From Candidatus Roizmanbacteria bacterium RIFCSPHIGHO2_12_FULL_37_23 (GTDB taxonomy: Bacteria > Patescibacteriota > Microgenomatia > UBA1406 > HO2-37-13b), in assembly GCA_001788095.1 (NCBI GenBank), contig MFZX01000038.1, forward strand, positions 1 through 55,301: DNA of 55,301 nucleotides, written 5' to 3'. The position numbers and the translations under genes were made by a program. This document shows positions 24,141 through 42,484 of the stretch, in pieces. The notes beneath the pieces were generated by a model. That model ran no database searches, had not been told where the DNA came from, and worked only from the letters and a program-made list of their open reading frames with translations. How positions within the stretch are numbered: position 1 is the stretch's first letter; every line of letters starts with the position of its first letter.

Positions 24141-24704
24141 TTATTCCTCGCTATACAATTCCGCCATATCTAGCAGGTTTACGCATCCATCCTGATTAAC
24201 ATCGAGTGCAGGATCGAATCCTTCATCTTCCTGACAGAGCCATAAAGCATCTTCGGTAAATGAATTAAAACTAAGTGAGAATAATCGGTTATCAGGCGCA
24301 GCAGGTATATAGGCTAATGTTGGACTTGCTAGTCCTGTGTGTATTCGTACATAATAACCTGTTCCTGGATTAAGATTCACAGGTGGATCGAGGTCTTGGT
24401 TTGAAAGATCATGAGTAATTGTTGCTTTGGAATCTTCTGCACATCTAAACTGCGCTCCATCAATACCAATTGAACAGTCAACTGTAGCGCGTACCTCTAG
24501 GTCTGTCACGAATGAAATTCTAAATCCTGTTCCTGAAACCCTCTCAGTCGTAATATTGGTCGGTTTAGAAGCAAATTCTGCTTTTGGTCTGAAGCGTGTA
24601 ACGACAAAAGCACTAACAACTAAAAACGGAAGCAGTACAACCAAAAGAACGATTCCTAAAAGTCGTTTATCAGATTTCAATTTTAACAAAAATTCTTTTC
24701 CCAT
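24141..24704 (-). CDS. TM-anchored FN3-like domain protein with a single dockerin/EF-hand loop
   Basis: ISFVTD...LNPGTGYYVRI; DVNQDGCVNLLD. Confidence 0.55.
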   Translation of the reverse strand: MGKEFLLKLKSDKRLLGIVLLVVLLPFLVVSAFVVTRFRPKAEFASKPTNITTERVSGTGFRISFVTDLEVRATVDCSIGIDGAQFRCAEDSKATITHDLSNQDLDPPVNLNPGTGYYVRIHTGLASPTLAYIPAAPDNRLFSLSFNSFTEDALWLCQEDEGFDPALDVNQDGCVNLLDMAELYSEE

Positions 24705-24710
24705 ACTCCC

Positions 24711-25553
24711 CTATAGTATCAATACTTTGACTATTATACTAATAACAACTAATAATATACCAACTCCAATCGCTGTACCCGTTGTTCTTAGAATACCTGT
24801 TGCCGGAAGTCCTGATGGTGTAGGACTTATGCTCACTGGAGACGGTGTCGCGCTTGCTGTAGCTACAGGTGCTATAGAAGGCGTGATAGTAATTGAAGGA
24901 GTAATTGTTCGAGTAGGTGTAATTGAAGGAGTGATTCGACCAGTTGGCGTAATACTTGACCTTGGAGATGGTATTCGCGTTGGGATAATATCACCTGTTG
25001 GACGTGGTGTTGGTGTTGCGCTCCCCCCTACTCCAGACACTATGAAAGTTGCTTCGTTAAGCTTGCTACATTCGATAATATCTGTAGGTCGAGCACCTTT
25101 TTTCACATTGATGTTTGAATCCCGTGTATCACCAGGCTGACATAAAAAATTAACAACATTACTGCTTTCAAGAACACCCTCAAAAACAATAGTGCCAATG
25201 AGTCCCTCTCCGGATTTCCCATCTGCAGCTCCGGGATTTATTGATGCTCCCATGTTTACTTTATTGTTCATGATTTTTTTAAAAAAAAGCGGAAAAAATT
25301 TTTCACTATCAGACGGTTCTTTTATACTTGCAATGCGTAATTGTGATTCATCATATAATATAACAGCTTCAACTGTTTTTGGCGCTTCTCCTTCAGTATT
25401 AATTTTTACATTAACATCAAATTGCTCTCCTTTTCGCACCGTTTTTGAGCTTGGTTCCAAAGTGAAATATGCCGCGTATGCACTCGAGGAGAATCCGAGA
25501 AGAAATATTGTTGCAACAACTATAAACAGCGTATATCTCGCATGCAATTGCAT
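24711..25553 (-). CDS. cohesin-domain protein with Pro/Thr linker and C-terminal TM anchor
   Basis: Start moved to MQLHARY; GEQFDVNVKINT...VEAVILYDESQLRI...GTIVFEG; LPATG followed by a hydrophobic tail. Confidence 0.7.
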   Translation of the reverse strand: MQLHARYTLFIVVATIFLLGFSSSAYAAYFTLEPSSKTVRKGEQFDVNVKINTEGEAPKTVEAVILYDESQLRIASIKEPSDSEKFFPLFFKKIMNNKVNMGASINPGAADGKSGEGLIGTIVFEGVLESSNVVNFLCQPGDTRDSNINVKKGARPTDIIECSKLNEATFIVSGVGGSATPTPRPTGDIIPTRIPSPRSSITPTGRITPSITPTRTITPSITITPSIAPVATASATPSPVSISPTPSGLPATGILRTTGTAIGVGILLVVISIIVKVLIL

Positions 25554-25622
25554 ATAAGAGATGGTACATGATACCGGCGAATTAAACAAGAGGTTCGGAT
25601 CGGATATGGTATGATAAAAGAT

Positions 25623-28208
25623 ATGGTAAAGGATACAAAATCTATTCATGGTGAAGTTGCAACAGTCCTTACCTTAATCGCTCTTTTGGTCACAAGCATT
25701 GGTCTTATTATTGGATATCAAGCCACACAATACGCCAGTTCTTTTCAAAGAAATTCTCAAGCTTCTGAACAATTTATTCCTTTACCCTTTAATATCAATC
25801 TGGAAAGTATATTGCGTTCGCATGTCGAAGAAGATGATAAAAACAATAATGAACCTGTCATCACCGAGCCTGTTAATGTTCACAGCGAAGTTTGTTTTCC
25901 AATGGGAACACGAGGTAATGCTGTTATCGACCCATACTGTAGAGGAAGACTCTACCCTAACCAACTTGATGACCTCATTGAGAATGGTGGAAGTAATGTA
26001 CGCGCTATCTTTAATAGACTTGGAAGAGATGAAAACAATCCTAATCCAGCGATCGTCGCAACAACTCGGGGAGATCAAAGAACTATTAATATATACGGTT
26101 CTGTGTGCTTAAATGATAATTCATTGGGAAGAAGTAGCGTTATCCCAACAGAAGGTACAAAAATCTTCTTAAGTACATTTTCTGTACGAAAATACGCAGA
26201 TGAAGGTGGAAACATTGGGGTTGTACCTAACGATATAAACACAGCACTCGAAGGACTTGTCGCAAGCGCAGAAGATAAGCGAGGATCAGCTCAAGATACA
26301 CTTGCACTTGTTCACGAGGATCAATCAGTGTGTACTTTCACCAACGGACGTGATTCTTATCAAAATCTCGGAAACCCACTTATTTTCAACATCCAGTTTT
26401 CAGTGAGCCAGCTTGTTGAAAAAATTGAAACAATCGGTGGACGATCATTTAGACGTCCTGACAGGACGTTTGATACAAAAGAATGTAGCGTCTATGTGCA
26501 CTTACGATATAACGGACGAGGTGATGGACCAAAAGATACATATAACCTTATACGCATTCACCTTGCAGATTTACTTGAAAAGCCTGATCTTGATCGTATT
26601 TGTCCTGGAGCTTCACCTACTCCAACATATACTCCTACTCCAACACCATCTGATACACCAACCCCTACACCAACTATCTCAGTAACTCCAACTGATACGC
26701 CCACGCCAACTATTACATTAACACCAACCATAACATCAACGCCAACTATTACACCTACTCCAGAACCTCGAGTATGTACGTTTGAAGCGCTTGCTTTTGT
26801 ACAAGAATGTACTGAGTGGGAAAATGAAGAACTGGCCATATGTAAAAAGGATCAGAAAGGACACTTGATTGGTAAACCAGTCGTTTTACCCCAATATTCG
26901 CAAAATACCCAACCTCCTCAACATACTCTCGAATTCCCCTTATGGTCAAATACCAATAATAAAAGCGCACGAAGCGGCAAGATTATTTTTTATAACAACC
27001 CTCCAGTAAGCCCCAAACCTCTTGCTGGATTATTATCTGGTGAACCAATAACAGCAACGTATTATGGAACTAACAATTATAATATAAGCCCGTATCTTCC
27101 AGGCGAAGATGCACATGTATCTATAACCATAGATGGTGACCGGTATAATTTCCTCCCATCAGGAGGTAAGGAAATACGTATGTGTGAAAATAAAGACATT
27201 GGTTTAACTGGAACTGATGCATGCAATATAAATGCATTTGAACAGAATCGTAGTGATGTTGATACTGTTCACGGTCTTACTATTAATTGTGGACAAGACA
27301 TCGTGTATGGATGGACTTTGCAAAAATGTCAGCAGGTCTTTGATTATATTTTTGTCGTGGATACTTCTACATCAATGGCAAACTTCGATGATCCTTTTTA
27401 TGGAAAGCGCAAAATTGAAGTGCTAAAAGACAATCTCACAGGTTTTATAGATAATATAAGTAGAAGTACCGTCGACAACAGGGTCGCACTTATACAATTT
27501 AATAAAATGAGCGCTGTAAGAAGTTCTTTTTCAAGAGATTTTAATGGTTTGCAGGATATAGCGCGCAATGGACTTATTGTGAGAGAGGGAACGTGTATTG
27601 AATGCGGCATTGATGAAGCTCGAAATCTTATTCTAAGTCGCGCTGACACCTCAAGAAAACCAGTGGTTATTATACTCACTGACGGTCTTCCTAATAGCAA
27701 CCCGGGTGGGGCCGGGCCAGCTGAGGGATACATACCCGGTGTTCTTAGAGCTGCAAACCGACTTAAAAGTATTTCGGACATAACCATTGCTTCAATTGGA
27801 TATGGAGATCCTCTAAAAGCTGGTTCGGATATACGTGAACTTCCCAGAGCACAGTTTTACGAGACTATTATTAAACCAATTGCCACCGATGAAACATGGG
27901 CTTTCTCAACTGACACAAATCGAGCACAACAAGCAGGCACAATAAATGAAATTTATTCTAAGATTGGTGACCGACTCAATTCATGCGCGGTAAGTAGACT
28001 CAATTATGCACGATATGTAAAATCAAAGGATCTTAACGATGATGGAATTATTAACTCAGTAGATCTTCTTCTTATTTTCGAAGCTTATTTTCAACAAGGT
28101 AATAATCTGTCAGAAGATATTAATGGTGATGATATCGTAAATTCTCTCGATTCCTCACTCATTTTCCTTGATTATGGACAAGAAATTGATTTGCTTCTTG
28201 ACAAATAA
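25623..28208 (+). CDS. large prepilin-like surface protein with VWA domain and C-terminal dockerin
   Basis: HG|EVATVLTLIALLV; PT repeats; YIFVVDTSTSM MIDAS and ILTDGLPN; DLNDDGIINSVD / DINGDDIVNSLD. Confidence 0.75.
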   Translation: MVKDTKSIHGEVATVLTLIALLVTSIGLIIGYQATQYASSFQRNSQASEQFIPLPFNINLESILRSHVEEDDKNNNEPVITEPVNVHSEVCFPMGTRGNAVIDPYCRGRLYPNQLDDLIENGGSNVRAIFNRLGRDENNPNPAIVATTRGDQRTINIYGSVCLNDNSLGRSSVIPTEGTKIFLSTFSVRKYADEGGNIGVVPNDINTALEGLVASAEDKRGSAQDTLALVHEDQSVCTFTNGRDSYQNLGNPLIFNIQFSVSQLVEKIETIGGRSFRRPDRTFDTKECSVYVHLRYNGRGDGPKDTYNLIRIHLADLLEKPDLDRICPGASPTPTYTPTPTPSDTPTPTPTISVTPTDTPTPTITLTPTITSTPTITPTPEPRVCTFEALAFVQECTEWENEELAICKKDQKGHLIGKPVVLPQYSQNTQPPQHTLEFPLWSNTNNKSARSGKIIFYNNPPVSPKPLAGLLSGEPITATYYGTNNYNISPYLPGEDAHVSITIDGDRYNFLPSGGKEIRMCENKDIGLTGTDACNINAFEQNRSDVDTVHGLTINCGQDIVYGWTLQKCQQVFDYIFVVDTSTSMANFDDPFYGKRKIEVLKDNLTGFIDNISRSTVDNRVALIQFNKMSAVRSSFSRDFNGLQDIARNGLIVREGTCIECGIDEARNLILSRADTSRKPVVIILTDGLPNSNPGGAGPAEGYIPGVLRAANRLKSISDITIASIGYGDPLKAGSDIRELPRAQFYETIIKPIATDETWAFSTDTNRAQQAGTINEIYSKIGDRLNSCAVSRLNYARYVKSKDLNDDGIINSVDLLLIFEAYFQQGNNLSEDINGDDIVNSLDSSLIFLDYGQEIDLLLDK

Positions 28209-28216
28209 ATTGTAGT

Positions 28217-28816
28217 ATGGGTAGAATGAAGAGCATGGATGACGTTTCAAAAGACATTAAGGATTTTCACAAGCTGAATCCTAATAGAAAACTTGCTATT
28301 CTAGGAATCTTTCTTTTCGTTTTCGTTTCTGCAATTCTCATCGGCGTTTATCTTTCTAAAGGTAAAACTTCACTTCCTTCATTACAAGAAGGCACAACTC
28401 AACAAACACAGGAGGCTGATAAAACAACTCTTTCTATGACGTCAAGCGCAACAGAAGTTGCAGTTGGTGACACTGTAACAGTAACCGTAGCACTCGCACA
28501 AACTCCTGTACAAGCAGTCGATTTGGTTGTGAATTTTGATCCAACCATGTTCAAAGCTTCAAATGTTGTAAACGGTACCGTATATGATGATATTTTGAGA
28601 AGTGAGGTTAAAGACGGACAGGTTGTTGTATCAGCTACAGTAAGTCCAAGCGATCCAACAAACTTAAAAACCGGTGACGTATTCACATTTACACTTCAAG
28701 CTCTTAAAGCTGGAAAAGGAGTACTTGAGTTTGATCCTAAACTTACAATTACCGCGAAAAATGGTGTGAATACATTAGGAACTGCTGGAGGAGCAACGAT
28801 CACAGTCGCACGATAA
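28217..28816 (+). CDS. TM-anchored single cohesin protein
   Basis: VGDTVTVTVAL...VQAVDLVVNFDP...VFTFTLQAL...LEFD. Confidence 0.75.
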   Translation: MGRMKSMDDVSKDIKDFHKLNPNRKLAILGIFLFVFVSAILIGVYLSKGKTSLPSLQEGTTQQTQEADKTTLSMTSSATEVAVGDTVTVTVALAQTPVQAVDLVVNFDPTMFKASNVVNGTVYDDILRSEVKDGQVVVSATVSPSDPTNLKTGDVFTFTLQALKAGKGVLEFDPKLTITAKNGVNTLGTAGGATITVAR

Positions 28817-28827
28817 TACGCTGTAAC

Positions 28828-31782
28828 ATGAAATTAGACAGTCGATTCAATCAAAAAGGCGAAATTGCCACATTATTGACCATTGTTTCAATGGTCGTTA
28901 TTGCGTTTGGACTCTTTGTGGGATCACAGGTAAGTCGTCAGGCTGGTCCTATCAATGTTCCCCCACGAGCCGCAGGACCTTCACCAACTCCAAAAATATT
29001 CAGCCTTATTACAGTTCCGGTTCCCGAACACGACGAAGCATGCTATCCATTTGGAGATACAGACAATCCGATCTTTGATCCATTTTGTCGAACACGACTA
29101 TACCCTGGCTCTTTTAGAACTGTTGAAACAGTAGTACGATCAACACAGGATGAATTAATAAAACCTGTGCGTAACGCAAGTGTCCCAGCAATAGTTTTTA
29201 ATCCTCTCAATTATAGTGGGAGTGGTCCTCAATCTATAGATGTTTATGGTACTCTGTGTTTAAAAAGAAATACAGGTACGGATACGAGAAATTTCAACTT
29301 GGGAACAGCTGATCTGTACATGAGTCCATATGCAGTGCAAAAATATGTAACTGAAGATGGTGAAATAGGTATCGTTCCTCTTGATATGACAAAAGCTCAA
29401 AAAGTATTAAAGAGCGCACAGGACTCTGATGGAACGCTTACTGTTGCTCGCCCAGGACAAGAGGTCTGTTCGTTCCAAGGTAATGATCGAGACAATCCTG
29501 TTTACGATGAAAGTAAATCTCGCTATCAAGCAAAAAACAATCCATTACTATTCAAGATTCATCTTGAGAGAAGTGATTTTATTCGAGATATTGAAATTGC
29601 AAAAAATGATACAAGCAGACCTTATAATACTGAAGAATGTGCTGTTTATATTCATCTTGAGAGGGATGGAAAACTCGATACGTTCAATATATTAAAGATT
29701 GATCTGGAAGATTTGGTTGGAGAAGAGGAAAAAAATAGATTATGTCCCAAAGATACACCTACACCAACTCCTCCCACAGAGACTCCAACCGAGACACCCA
29801 CAGAAACACCTACGCTCACTCCTACAGAAACTCCCCCTCCTCCCTTTGAAGCTGCGTGTTATGAGGAATGTAGTGTAAGAGATCCTCAAATAACGTGTAG
29901 AGATGAAGTAATTCCTGGAAAAGGACCACTTCGATGTTATGAAGTAGAAACAGATATCACACCTACTCCTCCCCGATTCCCAGCGGATGATACTTCGGAT
30001 AGCTTCTCAGAAGATCGAAGTGGACGCGGACCTTCTGGAACTGGTCCTCAAGTAGTAGGTAACTGTACAGCGAGTTCTGCTGAATGTCTTTGTCTTCCAA
30101 CATCATGCGCAAGTGGTGATGACTGCTCATCGCCAAAACTTGCTTGTGAACCACCAACGACTACGCCAACAGACACACCTACACCAACAGAAGTTCCTCC
30201 TCAAGCATGTACATATAATGCGATAGCTTATATTCAAGAGTGTGCTGATTTTGATTTTGCGCAAAACATATGTAAATCTGCAAAGCCACTTGAACCTACA
30301 GAACTTAGAAATGCAAAAAAATGGGGCATTGCAAACAACCTACAGATCAAAAATCGTGGAGACGCGCTTGTCGATCCTGTTCTCCCACCGCATCCGTTGG
30401 TAGGTACAAAGTTTAGAAACTTGAGGACCGAAGTAGACAGTAGAGGAACGACTAGAGATTTCTTTGCGAGACCAGTTGATGTCTCATTTAATCTGCTTCC
30501 TGGACAAAATCCAACTGATCTAGGAAAAGATAGTGGAATTAAAATCTTTGAACCAAATGACAATTCTCCTGAAGATTCTCCTGAAGCTGAAAAGTACTTT
30601 AATGGTGAAACTGCCTTTTCACGACTTTACTTAGATGAAGATGAATATAGGATTATTCCAAATAAAGGAAGTTACCCAGGAAATGCGATTCTAAGATGTG
30701 ACAATACTCATGGGCTTACAGCGTGTAATACAGAAGGTAATAGTCCTGTGGATACACAAGCATCACTCACTGATATCGGCAACTTCAATGTACAGTGTGG
30801 AGACGAAATCTTATATGGCTGGACTGTTCTAAAATGTATCGATAAACCACTTGATCTTGTGTTTGTGGTTGATACGTCATCTACAATGTTAGACAACACA
30901 GACAACAAGGGGGTAAAAAGAATTGTTGCTGCAAAAGCAATTCTTCAAGATTTTGTTGAAAACCAGCTCGCGTCATTTAATAATATAAATCAAATAGGAT
31001 TAGTATCGTTTAATAGAGATGCCCGCGTTGAACTTCGCTTAACACCAAAAGAAAATACTTACGCAATTCTTGATATACTTTCAGACCCGAATCGTCTACA
31101 GAACCAAGAATTTACTGAGATTGATGAAGGTTTGGCTCTCACTGATGAAGTCTTCACAAATGCAAATACAGAAAAAGTTATTATTCTTATAACCGATGGT
31201 GGGGTCAATCCATGCCATACTCGCTATGGATGCCCACCTCTTGATCCACAAAATGATGCTCGAAGAGTGCTTGTTGGGGAACAAAAACTTTACGACATTG
31301 CGAACAGATTAAAGAATACTCAAGGAAGAGTCATTATTTCAATGGCGATTGGTAACGATAGTGATAAAGTAACCTTTAGACCTGATATTCTCGGAAAAGT
31401 CGCTTCGTGTATTGATGGTAGTGACTGCCCAAGCAATGATCAATTTAGATACAATGATCCAAACTTAGGCTTGGTTCTTGAAAAGAAGCACTATTTGTCT
31501 AATCCAAATGCTACAACAGTTACAGCTGTTGTAGATGGTCTTATTAAAGGACTTAACACCTGTAACCTTATGCAAGCTAACTTTGTGAAATCACTTAAGT
31601 CTAAAGATGTTAACGGTGATGGAATCATCAATAGCGTCGATCTATTCCTCATATTTGATAATTACTTTGCTCAAGGTGAAAACATTCCCGAAGACGTTAA
31701 TAGCGACGGAATTGTGAATTCTCTTGATGTGACTGAGATATTTGCTGACTATGGTACGGTAGTTCCAACGGAAACCAAGTAA
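28828..31782 (+). CDS. large prepilin-like surface protein with VWA domain and C-terminal dockerin (paralog of 25623)
   Basis: QKG|EIATLLTIV; LVFVVDTSSTM, ILITDG; DVNGDGIINSVD / DVNSDGIVNSLD. Confidence 0.75.
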   Translation: MKLDSRFNQKGEIATLLTIVSMVVIAFGLFVGSQVSRQAGPINVPPRAAGPSPTPKIFSLITVPVPEHDEACYPFGDTDNPIFDPFCRTRLYPGSFRTVETVVRSTQDELIKPVRNASVPAIVFNPLNYSGSGPQSIDVYGTLCLKRNTGTDTRNFNLGTADLYMSPYAVQKYVTEDGEIGIVPLDMTKAQKVLKSAQDSDGTLTVARPGQEVCSFQGNDRDNPVYDESKSRYQAKNNPLLFKIHLERSDFIRDIEIAKNDTSRPYNTEECAVYIHLERDGKLDTFNILKIDLEDLVGEEEKNRLCPKDTPTPTPPTETPTETPTETPTLTPTETPPPPFEAACYEECSVRDPQITCRDEVIPGKGPLRCYEVETDITPTPPRFPADDTSDSFSEDRSGRGPSGTGPQVVGNCTASSAECLCLPTSCASGDDCSSPKLACEPPTTTPTDTPTPTEVPPQACTYNAIAYIQECADFDFAQNICKSAKPLEPTELRNAKKWGIANNLQIKNRGDALVDPVLPPHPLVGTKFRNLRTEVDSRGTTRDFFARPVDVSFNLLPGQNPTDLGKDSGIKIFEPNDNSPEDSPEAEKYFNGETAFSRLYLDEDEYRIIPNKGSYPGNAILRCDNTHGLTACNTEGNSPVDTQASLTDIGNFNVQCGDEILYGWTVLKCIDKPLDLVFVVDTSSTMLDNTDNKGVKRIVAAKAILQDFVENQLASFNNINQIGLVSFNRDARVELRLTPKENTYAILDILSDPNRLQNQEFTEIDEGLALTDEVFTNANTEKVIILITDGGVNPCHTRYGCPPLDPQNDARRVLVGEQKLYDIANRLKNTQGRVIISMAIGNDSDKVTFRPDILGKVASCIDGSDCPSNDQFRYNDPNLGLVLEKKHYLSNPNATTVTAVVDGLIKGLNTCNLMQANFVKSLKSKDVNGDGIINSVDLFLIFDNYFAQGENIPEDVNSDGIVNSLDVTEIFADYGTVVPTETK

Positions 31783-31784
31783 TT

Positions 31785-32612
31785 GTGAAACCAACTGCTA
31801 CGACATCTGTTTTATTACTCTCAATGCTCATCTTTATAATATTGGTTCTCGTAGCAGGTGTTTCGTTTCTCAGAAGTGGAAATTTCCTAAGCACGAATCC
31901 ACGCGCACAAAATCAAGAAAATATTACATCAAATACCTTTTCCCTACCCCAGTGCCCACTTCGTATAAATATCCATGTTAAAGAAGCCACAGAAGACGGC
32001 GAGGAAATACTTTTACAGATGTCCGATGTTCGCGAGGATGATGTTCAATGGGGATTTGTGGATGCCTTACACACTTCTACCGGAGATAGAAAAGCGATTT
32101 CATTTAATCATGATACATATGTCCAATATTCTATGTACGCGAGCGAATTATCATTTGTGCCTTTTCCTGAAGTAGATGAGGTTTATGAGGAGGGCTCAAA
32201 TACGTTCGTACGTTTTTTGTATAACCAAAATAACTTTGATATTTTGAGAAAAGAAGTAATTCGATGCAACTCAACAGAAAGCGAACAATGGCTATGTAAG
32301 CCAGATCTACAAGAAAATTTAGACACTATTTCTGGAATAACGCTTAAATGTAATATGGATTTAGACCTTGGATGGGTTGTTTTACGAAAATCGGAAACTG
32401 TTCAAAATACTTCCTCATTTTCCAAAAATCGTAAAGCCGTGTTCAAAACGTGCGATTTGAATGACGATAGTGCATGTAACACTATTGACCTCCTTATCGT
32501 GCTGGAATCGTATGGCAAACGCGGCTCAGATACTTCTGTAGCAGATCTCAATAATGACTCTCGAGTAGATGCGCTCGATTACACAATTGTCTTTGACCAA
32601 GTAGTAAACTAA
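31785..32612 (+). CDS. TM protein with the shared CGxDxxYGW-type domain and a dockerin
   Basis: ITLKCNMDLDLGW; DLNDDSACNTID / DLNNDSRVDALD. Confidence 0.7.
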   Translation: MKPTATTSVLLLSMLIFIILVLVAGVSFLRSGNFLSTNPRAQNQENITSNTFSLPQCPLRINIHVKEATEDGEEILLQMSDVREDDVQWGFVDALHTSTGDRKAISFNHDTYVQYSMYASELSFVPFPEVDEVYEEGSNTFVRFLYNQNNFDILRKEVIRCNSTESEQWLCKPDLQENLDTISGITLKCNMDLDLGWVVLRKSETVQNTSSFSKNRKAVFKTCDLNDDSACNTIDLLIVLESYGKRGSDTSVADLNNDSRVDALDYTIVFDQVVN

Positions 32613-32632
32613 TAAGCTAGCCTCAGCTTCGC

Positions 32633-32663
32633 CTCAAATCCCACCTCGGGAGTGGGATTTGAG
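32633..32663. repeat. REP palindrome, left of RAYT
   Basis: ctcaaatcccac-ctcggga-gtgggatttgag. Confidence 0.85.
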
Positions 32664-33409: not shown

Positions 33410-33538
33410 CTTAAACGAGCTTAAATGAAGCTTGACTTCCGTTGTTTTCTTCTCTACTATGAAGATATACCACTACGCCCCGATTCAATCGGGGCTACGT
33501 TAGGTATAGCCAATTTTTACAATAAAAGTGGTATAGGC

Positions 33539-36500: not shown

Positions 36501-37000
36501 AAGGAAAAACATGCAGAATATTTAGCGAACCAGAAAGAAGTGGTTTATATTGCTGTGGTGAGGAACCTCCTTCAACACCACAACCACGTCAACAAGAATT
36601 TTGTACCAGTATGAATTTCGCATATAGAGAAAGAGGCAATGAGGCAGCAGCGCAAGAAACGTGTTCTTCAGTTTGCCGAGAATTTAGCTGTACTGAAAAA
36701 AGGGTCACTTATTTTTCAGATTACCGACCTGCGCACTGGTATTGTTGTGTGAAGTATATGGGAAGAGGATTAGCTTCTACTGAATCTTTAGATATTGATA
36801 TTAAAGATATGGATTTCGACGATAATCAAGTTATCAATAGTCTTGATGTTCTTTTTGTCATAGAACACTATGCGCAAGAAACAGTGCAAATCAAATCATT
36901 AGAATATGAAAAAACGCCTGACCTCAATCATGACGGTACCGTCAATGCTCTCGATATTACGTATGTTATAAGTGCATTTGGAACTGAAGTTGGAAATTAG
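33539..37000 (+). CDS. giant prepilin-like surface protein with Cys-rich repeats and dockerin
   Basis: Start moved to MNRKQG|SISGLLLAG; poly-Gly linker; nine Cys modules; DFDDNQVINSLD / DLNHDGTVNALD. Confidence 0.75.
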   Translation: MNRKQGSISGLLLAGISVVAIITAVAGLQLNNRSLNKQVEADTMTADARLIKDSATLTKIKDNQIQIRASFCYAQDLRSGGREEWLVFPNLSNGFVLEDGKTSAHIDSGKIYTGTGFPASCEYSNRDTGEADYDAERGQYFTVTATFPQPLNSDYCPDVYLGYKGFWFQDTNRFAKIILKNHENICTPKVVPSAVPSAPVATNTPTPSPTTPPVATGSIEGKISVYACSQPDAVQLIYCENATCNLSSPLRSSGTSPQEHGIWLTDSNEDNTWIYQYKISKNSNGENLSPEKTYEFKGARAYFANTPYWSEGEDPQNKLRVKTGDKRDFTIDAQKTCGCPFNAVSYIKDVNGNYISALDGKQGLAGTHNNKQRFEKGDFPVPNFPFNHLGNNSGRIDVHYTDLGDFMSVRSFGHDALASVKLIAPGYKVLRQECKSNNPDVSACPTYKNSYSASAQELIQPELFQNLRVTCGTDLDYGWIIEAKPTPTPQPSNKGELEVAVFVTTDGRAPNSCHLRTLRDTVGGNSAWFRSGCEMKLTNKNTGETFEQNIKSYSDKKGQESGGCVGYNFSNLPFGRYELEISVDHESRLDIAKQCTRDELPAPYYRMDNIEITKGEDARNKSYTAVVYQPDRDKCELNVTTGAICDQDGGDKIVRLGPSSFLCCIEEGGSGGGGGGGGGGGSSGGVCPQWCATPEYCRSRGFEPRGLPQGESCGGSNEQWCCPPGTELPGGSGGGADLPGCCDRSLGNSQCPNGQTCSISNGSCRNGFSCDPDSGSGRGPGGGAGQSCSNGQGTCKSACGSGETPFQGPGLCSTGLTCCGTTSTERPAQCGLIYSNAGTCKRETLCPSDCIGASGGGYQCCRFATREGQCRAVGSGRSACSQCDESREDCTVDNASNAAFCCPEANQQQETLPCSNPIKSYGKDTGAFVQCMRDSACSDGICSASNVGSWFCCPKNQPPPPPPSSGGCEKTGYGAHEIPQCHDYCAGKGKTCRIFSEPERSGLYCCGEEPPSTPQPRQQEFCTSMNFAYRERGNEAAAQETCSSVCREFSCTEKRVTYFSDYRPAHWYCCVKYMGRGLASTESLDIDIKDMDFDDNQVINSLDVLFVIEHYAQETVQIKSLEYEKTPDLNHDGTVNALDITYVISAFGTEVGN

Positions 37001-37002
37001 CG

Positions 37003-37046: not shown

Positions 37047-37047
37047 T

Positions 37048-39795
37048 ATGAAAACTATGAAAACTGAAAAAACCAAACAACAGAGACAACGTGGTGCTAT
37101 TTCTCTCCTTGCTTTATTTGCTCTTGTTGTTATAGCTGTAGGTTTTGTTGCTGGTCAAAAACTCGTACAGAATACCCTTAATACACGATCATTCGCAGAT
37201 ACTGAATTCATACATTTGATACCTAATCGTGATATTCAGAGTGAATTAGAAGATCCCATTCGTTCAAGAACCTGGGATTATATTTTGGGAGGTAATCTTT
37301 GTTTCACTTCTAATCCCCCATCTGCAAATGGTAAATTCCGAGTAGAACTCTCCATGAGATTAAAGGATAAAAACAACCCCGCTAATATTGTTGAGGAAAT
37401 TATTGGAGCGTCTGTGTCAAAACTCGTGACTCATCCTGCTACACTACGCTGTAACTCTGCAAATCTGCGTAGCGCAACGTTTAACGCGCCCTTTAACATT
37501 CCTGAAAAGGAGAGATGGCTTGAAGAATGTCCTGAAATCAGCGTAAAAGTAACAACAGAAGGTAACTGGCGTCCATTGCCTCAGCAGGAAATTGCAACAA
37601 TTGATAGATCTCTTCTATGCCCCAATGGCGTACCCACACCGATAACCCAACCTACAGCACAACCCACAACACAACAACCTGGAGCACCAACTCAAGTGCC
37701 ACCTACAGCTCAACCATCAATCGCACCAACATTAACACTAACACCTACACCCCCTCCTGTGTATATTACTGGACGCATTACGGTCTTAACCTGCGTTGAA
37801 CCGAGCAAGGTACAAATAACCTTATGTGATAAGATAAATTCCAATAAGTGCACAGACGTACCTTTTACATCTGGTCCCTCCACTCACGGAGTGTGGCTTA
37901 ATGATACTAGCAATGATAAAACCTATCTATATTCTTATAGCATAGCTTTCGATCCAAATGGAGATGCTCTGGAGCAAGGAAAAGAATATACCATTCATAG
38001 CGCAAATGCATTGGTTATTAATAAACCTTATGTATCTGAAAAAGAAGATAATAAAACTGTTTCTGCTGGAACAACTCAAGATCTAACGATTTTTGCTCAA
38101 GGAAGAACATGTCCTTGTCAATTCCATGCTATTTCAAATGTTTATGTTCGTGACAATAATGGAAACCTTACTAAAACAACAGATCTTGACGGCGGCAATA
38201 CAAAAGGATCAACAAATGATATACAAGTTATCAGACTTGATAATCCCACTGGTGACCCACAATATAGAGGCAGAGTAGTTTCACCCTTTAGAAACGGATC
38301 GCTGGATGTTTCCATAGATTTTGCTGCTGTTGATATCAATAATGATATTGACTTCATTTATGGACCATATGGAAGAGATGGTTTAGCATATGTAAGACTT
38401 TACGCGTCTGAATACGATGTCGTTGGTCAAATTTGTACTAGTACAGGTGGTATTCATGCATGTCCAAATGAATCGTATGAATGGGGAAAAAATTTCCCAG
38501 AAAAAGCAGAAACCAATAAGGATTTCTATGGTCTAAGGGTTACTTGTGGAACGGATATTTCTTATGGTTGGATACTGGAAAAAAAGCCTATACAAGCTTC
38601 ACCAACACCCATACCTACCATCTTACCATCGACTACTCCCCCACAAGCTAGTGACGATGTATTTTCTGATAAAACAGGCACTATGAAGGATGATTCTTGT
38701 ACCCCACGCGGATTTGAGGTTACTGAGGTTAAAAATTCAGGAACCGGTGTTAATTTCGAATGGGAAAGATTAACAAATTGTTCTCAGTTTAAAGATGGGA
38801 CAGATAGATACTGGATACTTATTAAAAACAGTAATGGTGTAATTGTCGCTTCAAAAAGAGGTATGAAAGATAATGATACTGACGTGAAAATTTCAGAAAA
38901 ACAGCGAGGTATTCTTCCCCCAAACATCCAAATAGCAGACGATAATGAATTTAAAGCTGGTGAACGCTATACTGCCTATCTCTATGCTTATCAAGATGCC
39001 AACGAACAAAACATAAGTAAACCTGATGCGGCGTCATTCACTGGTGTAGGTAGAAGTGGTGACGGCGGAGGTGGGGGTGGAGGCGGCGGTGGAGGTGGTG
39101 GTGGCGGAAGCGGCAGCGGACAATTTAATTCCTTTAATATGATACTTATGGATGCCGATGCTCAAGATGCACAATGTTATGCTGCTACCAACGGAAGTGG
39201 TAATCCTATACATGACCAAGGAACACGCAATCATTCAAAAGGTCAATATACCTGCGGATACAACATAGGAAATAACCAAATAACAGTTGGCTTCAAAAAC
39301 AACAGTATGAGAGGCTCACAAGATCCTGCTATCCGAAACAAAGATGCGATCCGTATTATGTGGCAAACACATCGTTGTGCCGATGGCTCACTCCCCTGCC
39401 AAGATAACGAAGATGGTGTTGATAGAATGACTGAAGCAGCTGATTGGTGGTGTCTTAATCCGGGGCAGGATATCAGCTGCACATGGGATACCACTAAGTG
39501 GAAATCTAATCCGCCTGCTGTACGATGTTTTATAAATGACCAGGAAGTCACATCGAGACGGAACTGTGTCTATAGCGGATTTACTACGCTTAATGGACAA
39601 GGCATTACTATTGATTTCAAAAAAATGGATTTCAATAACGATAAAATAATCAATACAAGCGATTTAATAGTCTGTCTTGATGAATATGGAAAGAACGGAT
39701 CTAATTTACAATGCGATTTCAATAAGGATAATGCTGTAAATGCACTTGATTCGTCAGTTATGATTTCTTCCCAAGGAAGCGAAGTGGAAGATTAA
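37048..39795 (+). CDS. large prepilin-like surface protein with FN3-like segment and dockerin
   Basis: QRG|AISLLALFALVV; FEWERL...YWILI...YTAYLYAY; poly-Gly; DFNNDKIINTSD / DFNKDNAVNALD. Confidence 0.75.
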   Translation: MKTMKTEKTKQQRQRGAISLLALFALVVIAVGFVAGQKLVQNTLNTRSFADTEFIHLIPNRDIQSELEDPIRSRTWDYILGGNLCFTSNPPSANGKFRVELSMRLKDKNNPANIVEEIIGASVSKLVTHPATLRCNSANLRSATFNAPFNIPEKERWLEECPEISVKVTTEGNWRPLPQQEIATIDRSLLCPNGVPTPITQPTAQPTTQQPGAPTQVPPTAQPSIAPTLTLTPTPPPVYITGRITVLTCVEPSKVQITLCDKINSNKCTDVPFTSGPSTHGVWLNDTSNDKTYLYSYSIAFDPNGDALEQGKEYTIHSANALVINKPYVSEKEDNKTVSAGTTQDLTIFAQGRTCPCQFHAISNVYVRDNNGNLTKTTDLDGGNTKGSTNDIQVIRLDNPTGDPQYRGRVVSPFRNGSLDVSIDFAAVDINNDIDFIYGPYGRDGLAYVRLYASEYDVVGQICTSTGGIHACPNESYEWGKNFPEKAETNKDFYGLRVTCGTDISYGWILEKKPIQASPTPIPTILPSTTPPQASDDVFSDKTGTMKDDSCTPRGFEVTEVKNSGTGVNFEWERLTNCSQFKDGTDRYWILIKNSNGVIVASKRGMKDNDTDVKISEKQRGILPPNIQIADDNEFKAGERYTAYLYAYQDANEQNISKPDAASFTGVGRSGDGGGGGGGGGGGGGGGSGSGQFNSFNMILMDADAQDAQCYAATNGSGNPIHDQGTRNHSKGQYTCGYNIGNNQITVGFKNNSMRGSQDPAIRNKDAIRIMWQTHRCADGSLPCQDNEDGVDRMTEAADWWCLNPGQDISCTWDTTKWKSNPPAVRCFINDQEVTSRRNCVYSGFTTLNGQGITIDFKKMDFNNDKIINTSDLIVCLDEYGKNGSNLQCDFNKDNAVNALDSSVMISSQGSEVED

Positions 39796-39796
39796 T

Positions 39797-40396
39797 ATGA
39801 AAAGCCTAGCTCAAATACTTGTATACGATGTTCGTGATTTCACAACGCTAAGTCCTCAAGTAAAATTCCTCCTTAGTATTCAACTCATCATCCTTTTTAT
39901 ACTAAGTATCCTTGTTGGTGTACTTTTTTCACCTAAATTTAAAGCGCAGGTACAACAGCAAAACGTTATACAACCATCACTTGTTGAAGAACAAACAGCG
40001 ACTTTATCATTTGAGCCAAAAGATATTATTTTAAAATCTGGGGAAGAAAAAAGTGTCTCTATTTTACTCTCAGGAAAACCAGCAAGTGCTGTTGATATAG
40101 TCTTATCATATGATCCTACATTACTTCAGATAACCAACATGACAAACGGTGATGTCTTTGATCAAGAAATTATCAACAAACAATCTCGTGGAAAAATTCA
40201 GTTCTCTGCGGCTCGCTCTGCTACAACTGCACAACAAAAAGAAGGTATCGTAGCAACTATGAAAATCACAGCTTTAAAAAAAACAGGTTCTACCGCTACC
40301 TCAATTAGCTTTATTAAAGACGAGACTATTGTTGCAGAAAGTGGTATAAATATACTAGGTCTTATGAATGAGGCCGTTGTACGAATATTTGATTGA
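39797..40396 (+). CDS. TM-anchored single cohesin protein (paralog of 28217)
   Basis: 199 aa; ASAVDIVLSYDPTLLQI...VATMKITAL...ISFIK. Confidence 0.75.
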   Translation: MKSLAQILVYDVRDFTTLSPQVKFLLSIQLIILFILSILVGVLFSPKFKAQVQQQNVIQPSLVEEQTATLSFEPKDIILKSGEEKSVSILLSGKPASAVDIVLSYDPTLLQITNMTNGDVFDQEIINKQSRGKIQFSAARSATTAQQKEGIVATMKITALKKTGSTATSISFIKDETIVAESGINILGLMNEAVVRIFD

Positions 40397-40408
40397 GAAT
40401 TAAAGATT

Positions 40409-42484
40409 ATGAGACTCCATACTACAAATAGCCGGAAGGGTGAAATCGCAACATCATTGACGTTTCTCGCGTTATTTGTCATAACGCTCGGTGTTTTTAT
40501 TGGCTCATCTTTAGTAACAAATCCGTCACAACAGACCACAGAAACACAGGCATTTGCACCTGAAGGAATTACTGATCTTGGTAATCGGCATATCAATGTA
40601 ACATATGAAGGAACACCTCGAAGACGAGACATTAACCCTCGACATGATATTGTTTCTGGAACGCTATGTTTTAATACAGTCACGCCCCCACAATATGGTA
40701 TATATCAAATCGAAACAATACTTGAAACACAAAGCGGACAAGAATATAAAATTGGATCTGCTATGGAAGAGCGTATAACTTCCCATCCAAATATATACGA
40801 GTGTAGTAGCCCAAACTCACGACCTCGACCATTCTCAGCAATTTATTGGAATAATCTCACAGATATTTCTGACAAGGTTGCGTCTGCATCTATAAGTTTT
40901 GCAGATGTTAAAGAGATAAGACTCCAAATGGCCATAAAACAAGGTACATGGGGTTATCGCTCAGAAGAAATTCCTGTAAAATTCGCAACACTTAATAAAG
41001 CCCTTTTTGTAGCAACGACTCCAGGTCCTACATCTACACCAAGTGCAACACCAACCACTGGACCTGCGCAACCTGCTGATGTTGAGGCGAAGGTAACAAT
41101 AAATGGTGAGCTCAAACAAGGATTTAATAAATTTGATTACATAATCGAAACATGCAATCTAAAAGCTGATGGGACCATTAATATTAGCGATTGCGGTAAA
41201 GGCGATAATAAAAGCACAGGTAATATAAGTGCTTCTGGCCCTTTCCCATACAACTCTTCACACACATTAAACGGAGTTGGAGGTGGTGAGCGTGGAATCG
41301 TGCTTTTTTATGGTTATTACACAGCTGATGGCAAGAAGGACGTTACAGGAGTTGTCGTGAATCGAGAATCTGGGCAATGCTCTGGTGTGTTGATAAATCC
41401 TGTCGGAGGAGATTTCAGATGCAAAATCACCGTAAATGGTCAAAAAATTGTTCAAGAATTCAATATAACATTACCTGATAAAAATGCACGTACATTTGAA
41501 CTCTTTTATGGAAAGGAAACCGATGCTAAACGCCTCCTGCAGAATTGCTCGATGACAGCTGATACGCTTAATAGTTCAAAAAACAGCGCTTCATCACCCT
41601 GTTCAGCTCAATTTGCCGATAACACCATTACATTAAACTATACAAATACATCTGCATCATCAAGTGCTGAAAAAATCTATTGGCAACTGCGTCGATGTAA
41701 CGGCAAACTCGATCAAAACTTTGAACATTGTATTAGAAACCAAACAGCACAAGGAATAGATATTGATAACGAGTTTCAGGAAGCATCGAGCTCTGCAATT
41801 CAACCACGACAAGTACGAACGTGTACTTTTAAACTTTCAGACTTTCCAGCAAATGAAACAGAGGAAAATATAAGAAATCTGTTTACCAATAAATGTACAA
41901 CTGCAACACCGAGTAATACACCCACACCATCGCCATCACCAACAGGAACAGCAGTCGTTGAAAGTTACTACGCAACTTTTGCCATCTATAACAATACACG
42001 AAAAAGCATATCTACAGTAAAAGTGAAAACGTGCTATGGTACAGCCCCTTGCACCACTGAATCTATTAATGCTTCAATTAAATCTACGCAGAGAGGTGTT
42101 GTCGAATATGAAATGAAGCTTCCATCAGGTGTTACATCATACAAAGTAGGATGTTCAATCATATATCAAGGAGAGTCACAAGACATAGCATGTCCGGACG
42201 AAGTGAGCACAACTATAAAACAAAATATTATTTATAAAATGGTAGCGCATGAAAACTCACTTACAGGAGGTGGTTTTACTGAACTTCAGGCAAGTGATGT
42301 AAATAGTGATGGTTGTACTAACGGAAGCGACTTCTCAGAAGTAACGAATCAATATGCCTTTGAAGTACCACCTACTGTTGTTAATAAAGGTGACATTAAC
42401 GGAGATGGAATCATTAACTCGCTTGATATCATATATACGCTAGAAAACCTTAATAAAGGTGATTCGTGTGCTTTTAATCAGTAG
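40409..42484 (+). CDS. large prepilin-like surface protein with dockerin
   Basis: RKG|EIATSLTFL; DVNSDGCTNGSD / DINGDGIINSLD. Confidence 0.75.
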   Translation: MRLHTTNSRKGEIATSLTFLALFVITLGVFIGSSLVTNPSQQTTETQAFAPEGITDLGNRHINVTYEGTPRRRDINPRHDIVSGTLCFNTVTPPQYGIYQIETILETQSGQEYKIGSAMEERITSHPNIYECSSPNSRPRPFSAIYWNNLTDISDKVASASISFADVKEIRLQMAIKQGTWGYRSEEIPVKFATLNKALFVATTPGPTSTPSATPTTGPAQPADVEAKVTINGELKQGFNKFDYIIETCNLKADGTINISDCGKGDNKSTGNISASGPFPYNSSHTLNGVGGGERGIVLFYGYYTADGKKDVTGVVVNRESGQCSGVLINPVGGDFRCKITVNGQKIVQEFNITLPDKNARTFELFYGKETDAKRLLQNCSMTADTLNSSKNSASSPCSAQFADNTITLNYTNTSASSSAEKIYWQLRRCNGKLDQNFEHCIRNQTAQGIDIDNEFQEASSSAIQPRQVRTCTFKLSDFPANETEENIRNLFTNKCTTATPSNTPTPSPSPTGTAVVESYYATFAIYNNTRKSISTVKVKTCYGTAPCTTESINASIKSTQRGVVEYEMKLPSGVTSYKVGCSIIYQGESQDIACPDEVSTTIKQNIIYKMVAHENSLTGGGFTELQASDVNSDGCTNGSDFSEVTNQYAFEVPPTVVNKGDINGDGIINSLDIIYTLENLNKGDSCAFNQ

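What the first reader, a model, noticed from the sequence alone, without database searches (positions are those of the whole stretch)
24141..42484. Cellulosome-like cohesin-dockerin surface system built on prepilin-like giant proteins
Seen: six co-oriented genes (25623, 28828, 31785, 33539, 37048, 40409) each end in a duplicated DxNxDxxxNxxD Ca-loop pair. They are interleaved with two paralogous 199-aa TM-anchored cohesin genes (28217, 39797), and a further cohesin and dockerin gene lie divergently. Known: cohesin-dockerin pairs are the plug-and-socket of cellulosomes. Seen: no glycoside hydrolase is recognisable; the dockerin cargo is VWA, Cys-rich and unrecognised domains. Inference: a modular adhesin or host-attachment complex in a small-genome CPR epibiont, either tethering pilin-like adhesins to membrane cohesins or decorating pili.
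Basis: partly seen in the sequence, partly recalled or inferred. Interest (0 to 1): 0.85.

Follow-up and report, generated by a model that had tools for sequence, protein, structure and literature searches.

The report
Cohesin-dockerin adhesin locus of Roizmanbacteria
A tiny-genome groundwater bacterium (Roizmanbacteria-like CPR) carries a conserved gene block in which six large adhesin-like surface proteins each end in a calcium-binding "plug" (dockerin), next to three anchored "socket" proteins (cohesins). It is a real but non-cellulose-degrading variant of the cellulosome connector, probably used to hold adhesins on the cell envelope.

Summary
All six co-oriented genes end in two DxNxDxxxNxxD loops 21-29 residues from the C-terminus. 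Genome-wide 9 ORFs show such pairs, against 0 in 50 shuffles. The tails match Pfam Dockerin_1, and a profile of them finds solved dockerins first and calmodulin-type EF-hands far lower. The two 199-aa proteins pass Pfam's Cohesin cut-off. The divergent cohesin carries an LPATG sortase signal. The divergent "dockerin" has only one loop.

No glycoside hydrolase or CBM is present. Cargo is VWA domains (MIDAS intact in one), Cys-rich modules and unrecognised domains.

The whole block sits at the same chromosomal site in six further related loci. Dockerin tails there are class-specific: 49-63% identity within a class, 22-48% between classes. Across 301 Patescibacteria genomes, cohesin and dockerin co-occur (odds ratio about 6) and usually lie within 5 kb.

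"Prepilin-like" is only weakly supported. A conserved basic-Gly-hydrophobic N-terminus exists and the genome has PilD, but Glu+5, profile similarity to the genome's own pilins and a pilin fold were not found.

Binding was not tested and the dockerin structure prediction failed. CPR "cellulosomes" are already in the literature (Roizmanbacterium, Shapirobacterales). This is a new variant of a known kind, of moderate interest.

The parts
24141..24704 (-). 187-aa protein: N-terminal TM segment, fn3-like middle, degenerate half-dockerin (one Ca loop, DVNQDGCVNLLD)
   Evidence: (Dockerin_1 15 bits, fn3 13 bits). An ortholog sits next to the LPXTG cohesin in all five fetched relatives.
24711..25649 (-). 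Wall-anchored cohesin. The probable true start is Met33 (about 25553), giving a Sec signal ending ...SSSAYA|A, then a cohesin domain, a Pro/Thr stalk of about 90 aa, LPATG and a TM segment
   Evidence: Cohesin 16.1 bits; LPATG; E 8e-16 to the C27 LPQTG cohesin. The genome has 4 sortases. Orthologs with LPXTG appear.
25611..28208 (+). VWA-dockerin cargo 1 (865 aa; likely start 25623). Order of parts: basic-Gly-hydrophobic N-terminus, 6-Cys N-domain, PT linker, CxFxA...CGxDxxYGW domain, VWA with DTSTS/T/D MIDAS, dockerin
   Evidence: (VWA_2 51.9 bits; Dockerin_1 17.5)
28217..28816 (+). cohA: 199-aa N-terminally TM-anchored single cohesin with a conserved cytoplasmic tail (DxxDFxxLxPxxK)
   Evidence: (Cohesin 34.7 bits)
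28828..31782 (+). VWA-dockerin cargo 2 (984 aa), a paralog of cargo 1 (31% identity). Its dockerin halves are 12/22 identical
   Evidence: VWA_2 53.1; Dockerin_1 25.1; 2y3n_B dockerin E 7.6e-4
31785..32612 (+). 275-aa protein: plain N-terminal TM or signal segment, beta domain ending CN.DLDLGWVV, and a dockerin with a Cys pair in loop 1
   Evidence: (Dockerin_1 23.4). AF2 failed.
32634..33323 (-). IS200-like Y1 transposase (RAYT-like) inserted between two dockerin genes. It is not part of the system and is absent at this site in all related loci examined
   Evidence: (Y1_Tnp 29.1 bits)
33539..37000 (+). Cys-rich dockerin cargo (1153 aa from Met at 33539; the longest ORF starts at 33425).
   Evidence: Dockerin_1 34.6 bits; the ortholog starts at the equivalent Met
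37048..39795 (+). 915-aa dockerin cargo, paralogous to 33539 over about 500 N-terminal residues. Its dockerin has a class-specific Cys pair
   Evidence: 15.3 bits; 23.7 bits with neighbouring segments
39797..40396 (+). cohB: second 199-aa TM-anchored single cohesin, 28% identical to cohA
   Evidence: Cohesin 38.3 bits; 4ums_A
40409..42484 (+). 691-aa dockerin cargo with the most divergent dockerin class. Its tail is 90% identical to the L001 ortholog, against 53% for the rest of the protein
   Evidence: (Dockerin_1 30.3 bits)
947..5373 (-). Second cohesin-dockerin block in the window: one cohesin (947-1819) and three dockerin proteins (1880-3835, 3838-4623, 4630-5373)
48532..50237 (-). Third block: a cohesin (48532-49560) and an EF-hand/dockerin-like Cys-rich protein (49557-50237), downstream of a fimbria-like gene trio

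Best explanation
The region is a family-conserved, non-cellulosomal cohesin-dockerin surface-anchoring locus.

Six large exported proteins carry binding-type modules rather than enzymes: two VWA/MIDAS proteins, a Cys-rich module array and several unrecognised beta domains. Each ends in a Ca-binding type-I-like dockerin.

Three single-cohesin anchor proteins are encoded among them. Two are held in the membrane by an N-terminal TM helix (cohA, cohB). One is Sec-secreted, carries a Pro/Thr stalk and is probably linked to the cell wall by sortase (LPATG).

Proposed mechanism (inferred): after export, each dockerin plugs into its cognate cohesin, so the cargo is held at defined depths of the envelope. 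The VWA and Cys-rich modules then contact a partner cell or surface. Class-specific dockerin sequences suggest three or more separate plug-socket specificities.

Shown here: module identity, operon-like packing, synteny, co-occurrence, and differential conservation of the tails.
Inferred only: physical binding, Ca dependence, which dockerin fits which cohesin, what happens to the N-terminal hydrophobic segment, and the adhesin or host-attachment role.
For: Module identity:
- Pfam Cohesin, Dockerin_1 and VWA hits.
- A profile of 11 dockerin tails finds 19 solved dockerins first (2y3n_B E 9e-10, both repeats aligned). Calmodulin-type EF-hand proteins score only 22-25 bits.
- The cohesin profile hits only cohesins in the PDB.

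Not chance:
- Paired C-terminal loops occur in 9 ORFs, against 0 in shuffles.

Gene packing and anchoring:
- Cohesin genes are 1-12 nt from flanking dockerin genes.
- LPATG on the divergent cohesin, and 4 sortases in the genome.

Conservation:
- The same gene order lies between a glutaredoxin-like gene and 7TM/ATP-grasp genes in L001/L002 and in five genomes of the same family. Every cargo protein keeps two C-terminal loops.
- Dockerin tails are better conserved than cargo in three of the four ortholog pairs checked (90 vs 53%, 76 vs 40%, 70 vs 53%).
- Tails are class-specific.
- The cohesin profile matches 49 of 61 relatives.

Phylum-wide:
- Cohesin in 64 and dockerin in 59 of 301 genomes, both in 30 (Fisher odds ratio about 6, p about 2e-8).
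- They lie within 5 kb in 18 of the 29 other genomes that have both.

Cargo range:
- A C27 locus pairs two cohesins with an M4-protease-dockerin, which shows the connector is used for varied cargo.
Against: - No binding was predicted or measured. Only single-chain prediction was available, and the model containing a dockerin failed (pLDDT 43).
- Two of six dockerins and the LPATG cohesin fall below Pfam's cut-off on their own.
- Five cargo proteins keep a long N-terminal hydrophobic segment. They might therefore be membrane-anchored already, which leaves unexplained why a C-terminal tether is needed.
- There are six to seven dockerins for three cohesins.
- No expression data: no RNA run holds the locus.
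- The co-occurrence statistics ignore phylogenetic non-independence.
- The adhesin role of VWA and the Cys modules rests on general knowledge, not on a test.
Confidence: 0.65

Rival explanations
1. A true (mini-)cellulosome: the complex organises polysaccharide- or polymer-degrading enzymes on the cell surface. This is how cohesin and dockerin genes of Roizmanbacterium and Shapirobacterales have been read in the literature.
For: - Bell et al. 2022 (PMC9123182) report expressed cohesin and dockerin proteins in Ca. Shapirobacterales. They cite Geesink et al. 2020 for 'cellulosomes' in Ca. Roizmanbacterium.
- In the more distant syntenic loci L003/L004 one protein of the block hits Pectate_lyase_4. 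Whether that protein carries a dockerin was not checked.
- The C27 locus carries an M4 protease with a dockerin.
Against: - None of the six cargo proteins here has a GH, PL, CE or CBM hit in Pfam or NCBIfam.
- There is no multi-cohesin scaffoldin. Every cohesin protein has one cohesin.
- The recognisable cargo is VWA/MIDAS and Cys-rich modules.
Confidence: 0.1
2. The five large proteins are class III (prepilin-type) substrates. PilD cleaves them after the conserved Gly, and they are mounted on or at the tip of type IV pili as modular minor pilins. Streptococcus sanguinis PilB with its vWA module is the model (own knowledge). The cohesin-dockerin contact then serves as a storage, hand-over or pilus-base tether.
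For: - The Gly at the boundary of the basic and hydrophobic regions is invariant across the family at 25-37% identity, along with L17, G28 and G32.
- The hydrophobic stretch of about 21 residues is too long for a typical cleaved Sec signal, and no AXA site follows it.
- The genome has one PilD and 8 canonical pilins.
- Tip minor pilins such as GspK also lack Glu5 (own knowledge).
Against: - No Glu+5 in any of them.
- No prepilin N-methylation domain hit.
- hhalign against the genome's own pilins gives 1.9% probability and aligns only the n-region and the Gly.
- The AF2 model has helix 11-37, then a disordered Pro-rich linker, then a beta domain. It is not a pilin lollipop and has no pilin match in Foldseek, but its pLDDT is only 62.7.
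- No pilus assembly genes lie in the locus.
Confidence: 0.15
3. The C-terminal repeats are Ca-binding stabilising or ligand-binding modules that act without cohesins. The neighbouring cohesin-fold proteins are then unrelated Ig-like surface proteins.
For: - Dockerin-like modules without known cohesin partners are common in genomes (own knowledge; Peer et al. 2009).
- 29 of 59 dockerin-positive Patescibacteria genomes had no cohesin hit at E<=1e-5.
Against: - Tight interleaving and conserved order of cohesin and dockerin genes in seven loci.
- Significant co-occurrence and adjacency across the phylum.
- Dockerin tails are conserved more strongly than cargo.
- The profile resembles cohesin-binding dockerins far more than generic EF-hand proteins.
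Confidence: 0.08

Closest known systems
Ruminococcus flavefaciens ScaE anchoring system: a sortase-anchored single cohesin that holds ScaB and the adhesin CttA through their dockerins (own knowledge)
   Same: A single-cohesin protein with a C-terminal LPXTG sortase signal. It tethers dockerin-bearing proteins, including a non-enzymatic adhesin, to a Gram-positive-type wall.
   Different: Here there is no enzyme-integrating scaffoldin and no X-module was recognised. Two further cohesins are anchored by an N-terminal TM helix. The cargo is VWA and Cys-rich, not cellulose-binding. Five cargo proteins keep a long N-terminal hydrophobic segment.
Non-cellulosomal cohesin-dockerin pairs: Clostridium perfringens glycosidase/toxin complexes, the Archaeoglobus fulgidus pair, and the survey of Peer et al. 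2009 (own knowledge)
   Same: Cohesin and dockerin modules used outside cellulose degradation, in organisms without cellulosomes.
   Different: Those cases are mostly isolated pairs on enzymes. Here an 11-gene, family-conserved operon-like block has three cohesin classes and at least four dockerin classes on adhesin-like cargo.
'Cellulosome' components reported in CPR: Ca. Roizmanbacterium ADI133 (Geesink et al. 2020, as cited in PMC9123182), Ca. Shapirobacterales (expressed proteins, PMC9123182), and a soil Saccharibacterium (bioRxiv 10.1101/211649)
   Same: The same phylum, and for Roizmanbacterium probably the same lineage. The same two module types, with protein-level expression in a Microgenomates relative.
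   Different: Those reports read the genes as cellulose-degrading complexes. In this locus no carbohydrate-active domain is detectable and the architecture is anchoring-type.
Modular type IV pilins of Streptococcus sanguinis: PilB with a vWA module (own knowledge)
   Same: A large surface protein with an N-terminal basic-Gly-hydrophobic segment and a MIDAS-bearing vWA adhesion module, in a monoderm with type IV pili.
   Different: No Glu+5 and no detectable pilin module. A C-terminal dockerin is added, and the locus has no linkage to pil genes.

Membership tests
Cohesin (Pfam PF00963) | Profile match above the curated gathering score (24.1 bits) | tested here: met
   28217: 34.7 bits. 39797: 38.3 bits. 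Also 947c: 25.3 and 48532c: 27.1. The LPATG protein scores only 16.1 bits but matches the 45.5-bit C27 cohesin at BLASTP E 8e-16.
Cohesin (Pfam PF00963) | Similarity to experimentally solved cohesins, nine-stranded jelly-roll fold | tested here: inconclusive
   The sequence profile hits only cohesins in the PDB, and weakly (4ums_A E 0.003, 3l8q_A, 5lxv_A). No structure model of the cohesin was made because both prediction jobs went to other parts.
Dockerin type I (Pfam PF00404) | Two segments of about 22 residues, each a Ca loop (D1, N/D3, D/N5, D12) followed by a helix, at the protein's C-terminus | tested here: met
   All six proteins have both loops 29-36 residues apart and 21-29 residues from the end. 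Four of six pass the Pfam cut-off alone and six of six with summed segments. The profile finds solved dockerins at up to 41 bits, against 22-25 bits for calmodulin-type EF-hand proteins. The 187-aa protein has one loop only, so it does not meet this feature.
Dockerin type I (Pfam PF00404) | Predicted or solved dockerin fold (paired F-hands) | tested here: inconclusive
   The AF2 model of the 275-aa protein has pLDDT 43 overall and below 35 in the tail.
Cohesin-dockerin system | Ca-dependent, specific physical binding of dockerin to cohesin | not testable with these tools
   Only single-chain prediction was available. Indirect support comes from synteny, co-occurrence, and tail conservation in three of four ortholog pairs.
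Cellulosome (sensu stricto) | Scaffoldin with multiple cohesins that integrates dockerin-bearing carbohydrate-active enzymes, usually with a CBM | tested here: not met
   Every cohesin protein has a single cohesin. No GH, PL, CE or CBM hit in any of the ten locus proteins.
Type IV (pre)pilin / class III signal peptide | Basic n-region, Gly at -1, hydrophobic stretch of about 20 residues, Glu at +5, N-methylation motif (TIGR02532/PF07963) | tested here: not met
   Gly and the hydrophobic stretch are present in five proteins. Glu+5 is absent, whereas the genome's 8 canonical pilins have G|F/V-T-L-x-E. No NCBIfam or Pfam prepilin hit. hhalign probability is 1.9%.
Type IV (pre)pilin / class III signal peptide | Pilin fold: long alpha-1 helix packed on a beta sheet | tested here: inconclusive
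   AF2 pLDDT 62.7. Helix 11-37 is followed by a disordered linker and a separate beta domain. No pilin among the Foldseek PDB matches, none of which reach E<=1e-3.
Sortase-anchored surface protein | C-terminal LPXTG, then a hydrophobic segment, with a sortase in the genome | tested here: met
   The protein ends LPATG-ILRTTGTAIGVGILLVVISIIVKVLIL. Four sortase genes are present. LPXTG is kept in four of the five fetched relatives and in L001.
VWA domain with MIDAS | Pfam VWA above cut-off, with DxSxS...T...D metal-site residues | tested here: met
   VWA_2 scores 51.9 and 53.1 bits. 25611 has DTSTS...GTC... and ...LTDG. 28828 has the variant DTSST (read).

The most novel reading that the evidence does not exclude
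The block is a lineage-defining, multi-specificity attachment organelle of Roizmanbacteria-type episymbionts. Giant adhesins carry a new Glu5-less class III-like signal (G|E-[IV]-A). They would be processed by PilD, extracted from the membrane, and then sorted by three or more orthogonal dockerin classes onto membrane-level (cohA, cohB) and wall-level (LPXTG) cohesin sockets. This would couple the prepilin pathway to cohesin-dockerin anchoring, a combination not described for either system.
Probability: 0.15. Interest if true: 0.8.

Novelty: new variant of a known kind. Interest (0 to 1): 0.5.

Why it matters
CPR/Patescibacteria are thought to live attached to host cells, but outside Saccharibacteria type IV pili almost nothing is known about what holds them there.

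This locus is conserved at one chromosomal site across a family. It devotes about 18 kb of a 1.09 Mb genome to adhesin-like proteins joined to anchors by cohesin-dockerin pairs.

If binding is confirmed, three things follow. It would correct the habit of annotating such genes as 'cellulosomes' and inferring cellulose degradation. It would give concrete candidates for host-attachment proteins in Microgenomates. And it would supply several naturally orthogonal small plug-socket pairs.

Tried and rejected
1. AF2 of the 275-aa dockerin protein with a 5-sequence alignment gave pLDDT 43 and was unusable.
2. AF2 of the N-domain of 28828 gave pLDDT 62.7. Foldseek against the PDB gave nothing at E<=1e-3.
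3. A word-based homolog search with residues 1-340 of 28828 found nothing. Exhaustive phmmer found only 11 representative clusters, so the N-domain is lineage-restricted.
4. The search for RNA runs holding the locus found none, only groundwater and soil DNA metagenomes.
5. The promoter and terminator scan was no better than shuffles.
6. The Pam pilus preprint (bioRxiv 10.64898/2026.03.03.709456) was read for a cohesin-dockerin link. Neither word occurs in it. PDB sequence searches with two genes of the 48.5-52.5 kb block gave nothing.
7. A natural in-frame dockerin-cohesin read-through to fake a complex prediction was considered. The adjacent genes are in different frames, so it was not attempted.
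8. The idea that the region is a hypervariable mobile island was rejected. It is syntenic and vertically conserved, and only the RAYT-like gene is an insertion.

Full report
**What is there**

The window is contig C38 of a 1.09 Mb, 45-contig, about 95% complete genome. The closest named relative of its cohesin is a Candidatus Roizmanbacteria (Microgenomates) protein at 60% identity. The locus occurs in groundwater and soil DNA metagenomes.

Between 24.1 and 42.5 kb lie the following genes:
- On the minus strand, a 187-aa and a 312-aa gene.
- On the plus strand, genes of 865, 199, 984 and 275 aa.
- A minus-strand IS200-like Y1 transposase.
- On the plus strand, genes of 1191 (more likely 1153), 915, 199 and 691 aa.

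Plus-strand neighbours are packed 1-12 nt apart around the two 199-aa genes. This arrangement is operon-like.

**Checking the observation**

All six plus-strand large or medium proteins end in two matches to D.[ND].[DN]...[NDST]..[DE]. The matches are 29-36 residues apart, and the second lies 21-29 residues from the C-terminus. In all 3729 ORFs of the genome only nine have such a pair, and eight are on this contig. Fifty residue shuffles gave none.

Pfam Dockerin_1 is above its gathering score in four of the six proteins. With summed segments in the six-frame search it is above the score in all six.

I built a profile of eleven tails from the window and from the L001 orthologs and searched the PDB. 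The first 19 matches are solved dockerins. The best is 2y3n_B at E 9e-10 and 41 bits, with both repeats aligned over 53 of 67 profile positions. Calmodulin-type EF-hand proteins reach only 22-25 bits. At the sequence level these are dockerins.

The structural test failed. The AF2 model of the 275-aa protein had pLDDT 43.

The two 199-aa proteins pass Pfam Cohesin at 34.7 and 38.3 bits. They are 28% identical. Their family profile hits only cohesins in the PDB, though weakly. Each has an N-terminal hydrophobic helix preceded by a conserved cytoplasmic tail with D11, F15, L18, P20 and K23 invariant.

The divergent 312-aa protein is a sub-threshold cohesin at 16.1 bits. It is clearly homologous to a 45.5-bit cohesin on contig C27. 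It has the following features:
- a Sec-type signal if translation starts at Met33;
- a Pro/Thr stalk;
- an LPATG sortase signal followed by a TM segment.

The genome has four sortases.

The divergent 187-aa protein has only one Ca loop, so it is a degenerate half-dockerin.

**Cargo**

Two proteins carry VWA domains at 52-53 bits. 25611 has a complete DTSTS...T...D MIDAS, and 28828 has the variant DTSST. No glycoside hydrolase, lyase, esterase or CBM is detected by Pfam or NCBIfam in any of the ten proteins.

BLASTP shows old paralog pairs:
- 25611 and 28828, 31% identical.
- 33539 and 37048, 30% identical over about 500 residues.
- 37048 and 40409, similar over about 150 residues.

The N-domain of the VWA proteins is rare. 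There are 11 representative clusters among 1.84 billion proteins. Of the ten retrieved, the seven complete large proteins share the layout N-domain, PT linker, Cys domain, VWA, dockerin; the other three are one N-terminally cut protein, one in which only the N-terminal signal segment aligns, and one short fragment.

**Is the system conserved?**

Yes. Two metagenome contigs of a Roizmanbacteria relative (L001, L002) have the order cohLPXTG | cohA - VWA - doc273 - large - large - cohB - doc679 - 7TM_transglut - ATP-grasp. More distant contigs (L003, L004) share the block and its flanks, and one protein there hits Pectate_lyase_4.

I fetched the region from five genomes of the same family, G305, G306, G315, G320 and G324. 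In all five the block lies between the same glutaredoxin-like gene and the 7TM/ATP-grasp genes. Its order is cohLPXTG, fn3-half, cohA, VWA (about 1000 aa), cohA in four of the five genomes, VWA (about 850 aa), doc (about 265 aa), 37048-like, Cys-rich, cohB, 40409-like. Every cargo class keeps two C-terminal loops. None has the RAYT-like gene.

The cohesin profile matches 49 of 61 relatives. About 16 of 24 same-family genomes have full-length TM-cohesins, in 2-4 copies each.

Between the window and L001, dockerin tails are better conserved than the rest of the protein in three pairs and not in a fourth:

| Ortholog pair | Tail identity | Rest of protein |
|---|---|---|
| 40409 | 90% | 53% |
| 28828 | 76% | 40% |
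| 31785 | 70% | 53% |
| 37048 | 60% | 62% |

Across the seven loci the tails cluster by cargo class. Identity is 49-63% within a class and 22-48% between classes. Each class has its own Cys signature. The two VWA classes are closest to each other (48%), and the 40409 class is the most distinct. This fits several separate docking specificities, but it does not prove them.

**Phylum context**

In 301 evenly drawn genomes of the phylum, Cohesin is found in 64 and Dockerin_1 in 59, at E<=1e-5. Both are present in 30 (Fisher odds ratio about 6, p about 2e-8, not corrected for phylogeny). In 18 of the 29 other genomes with both, they lie within 5 kb.

This genome has the most cohesin hits in the sample (6). 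It also has a C27 locus with a TM-cohesin, an LPQTG-cohesin and an M4 (HExxH) protease carrying a dockerin.

**The 'prepilin-like' claim**

Five of the six cargo proteins start with a basic stretch, an invariant Gly, then E, A or S, then I or V, followed by about 21 hydrophobic residues. Orthologs and distant family members keep this, with G11, L17, G28 and G32 invariant. The genome has one PilD.

Against the claim:
- The genome's eight canonical pilins all have G|F/V-T-L-x-E, and these five proteins have no Glu+5.
- No prepilin model hits them.
- hhalign between the two sets of N-termini aligns only the n-region and the Gly, at 1.9% probability.
- The AF2 model (pLDDT 62.7) shows helix 11-37, a disordered Pro-rich linker and a separate beta domain. 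It has no pilin match in Foldseek.

The segment may be a Glu5-less class III signal or a plain signal anchor. I put the pilin-pathway reading at about 15% as the main explanation. I put the chance that PilD cleaves these proteins at roughly 40%.

**Mechanism proposed**

Shown:
- Real cohesin and dockerin modules.
- Tight genetic coupling.
- Three anchor types: two TM cohesins and one sortase/LPXTG cohesin with a stalk.
- Adhesin-type cargo.
- Long-term conservation, with stronger constraint on most of the plugs.

Inferred:
- After export, each dockerin binds Ca2+ and plugs into a cognate single-cohesin anchor.
- This fixes the cargo at membrane level or wall level, and the VWA and Cys-rich modules bind a partner surface.

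Open questions:
- Why proteins that keep an N-terminal hydrophobic helix also need a C-terminal tether.
- How six to seven plugs are shared among three sockets.

**Comparison with what is known**

Cohesin-dockerin outside cellulosomes is established (own knowledge). Examples are the Peer et al. 2009 survey, the C. perfringens toxin complexes, the A. fulgidus pair, and R. flavefaciens ScaE, a sortase-anchored single cohesin that holds the adhesin CttA.

In CPR, three reports were found:
- Bell et al. 2022 detected expressed cohesin and dockerin proteins of Ca. Shapirobacterales. They cite Geesink et al. 2020 for 'cellulosomes' in Ca. Roizmanbacterium (the Geesink paper is not held).
- Starr et al. 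described a 'two-subunit cellulosome' in a soil Saccharibacterium.
- Wang et al. 2023 list an essential dockerin protein in Southlakia.

None of the held papers analyses such a locus as an adhesin-anchoring system. Earlier notes of this scan report CPR cohesin-dockerin pairs in hundreds of genomes.

**Verdict**

This is a new variant of a known kind: anchoring-type, non-enzymatic, multi-class, and conserved across a family. It is not a cellulosome, and it is not shown to be pilin-based.

Noticed in passing
window 32634-33323 (-): An IS200-like Y1 transposase (RAYT-like; Pfam Y1_Tnp 29.1 bits) sits between two dockerin genes. It is absent from the same site in L001/L002 and in all five fetched relatives, so it is a lineage-specific insertion that splits the block.
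   Followed up: partly
window 48532-52477 (-): Five genes in a row:
- two secreted proteins (323 and 172 aa) with a shared C-terminal domain;
- a 226-aa fn3_5-like protein with a C-terminal TM segment;
- a Cys-rich EF-hand/dockerin-like protein;
- a 342-aa cohesin (27.1 bits).
The block could be a Pam-like or WxL-like fibre operon ending in a dockerin-cohesin pair. The PDB sequence search gave no hit, and the Pam preprint does not mention cohesin or dockerin.
   Followed up: partly
window 947-5373 (-): A further block with one cohesin (25.3 bits) and three small or medium dockerin proteins (651, 261 and 247 aa). Two are Cys-rich. The cargo is unassigned.
   Followed up: partly
genome contig C27:17504-22148 (-): An M4 thermolysin-like protease (HEYQH, GGVHVNNG) with a C-terminal dockerin, cut off by the contig end. 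It is followed by a TM-anchored cohesin, an LPQTG sortase-anchored cohesin and two paralogous TM proteins of unrecognised domain content (no BLASTP match to the 187-aa protein). The same connector is therefore used for an enzyme elsewhere in the genome.
   Followed up: partly
window 28217-28300 and 39797-39870 (+): The cytoplasmic tails of the two TM-cohesins share an invariant motif (D11, F15, L18, P20, K23), although the proteins are only 28% identical. This suggests a conserved intracellular contact or a sorting signal.
   Followed up: no
window 13619-21058 (-): Upstream lie a 1292-aa fusion protein (weak GT2 hit, APH phosphotransferase at 109.7 bits, further C-terminal part) and a 1180-aa protein with no family hit. 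Neither was examined further.
   Followed up: no
window 42830-45835 (+): A 7TM_transglut protein, an ATPgrasp_ST/RimB-like fusion and a RimK-like ATP-grasp protein directly follow the block. They flank it in every relative examined. A functional link, such as peptide or polyglutamate modification, is possible but untested.
   Followed up: no
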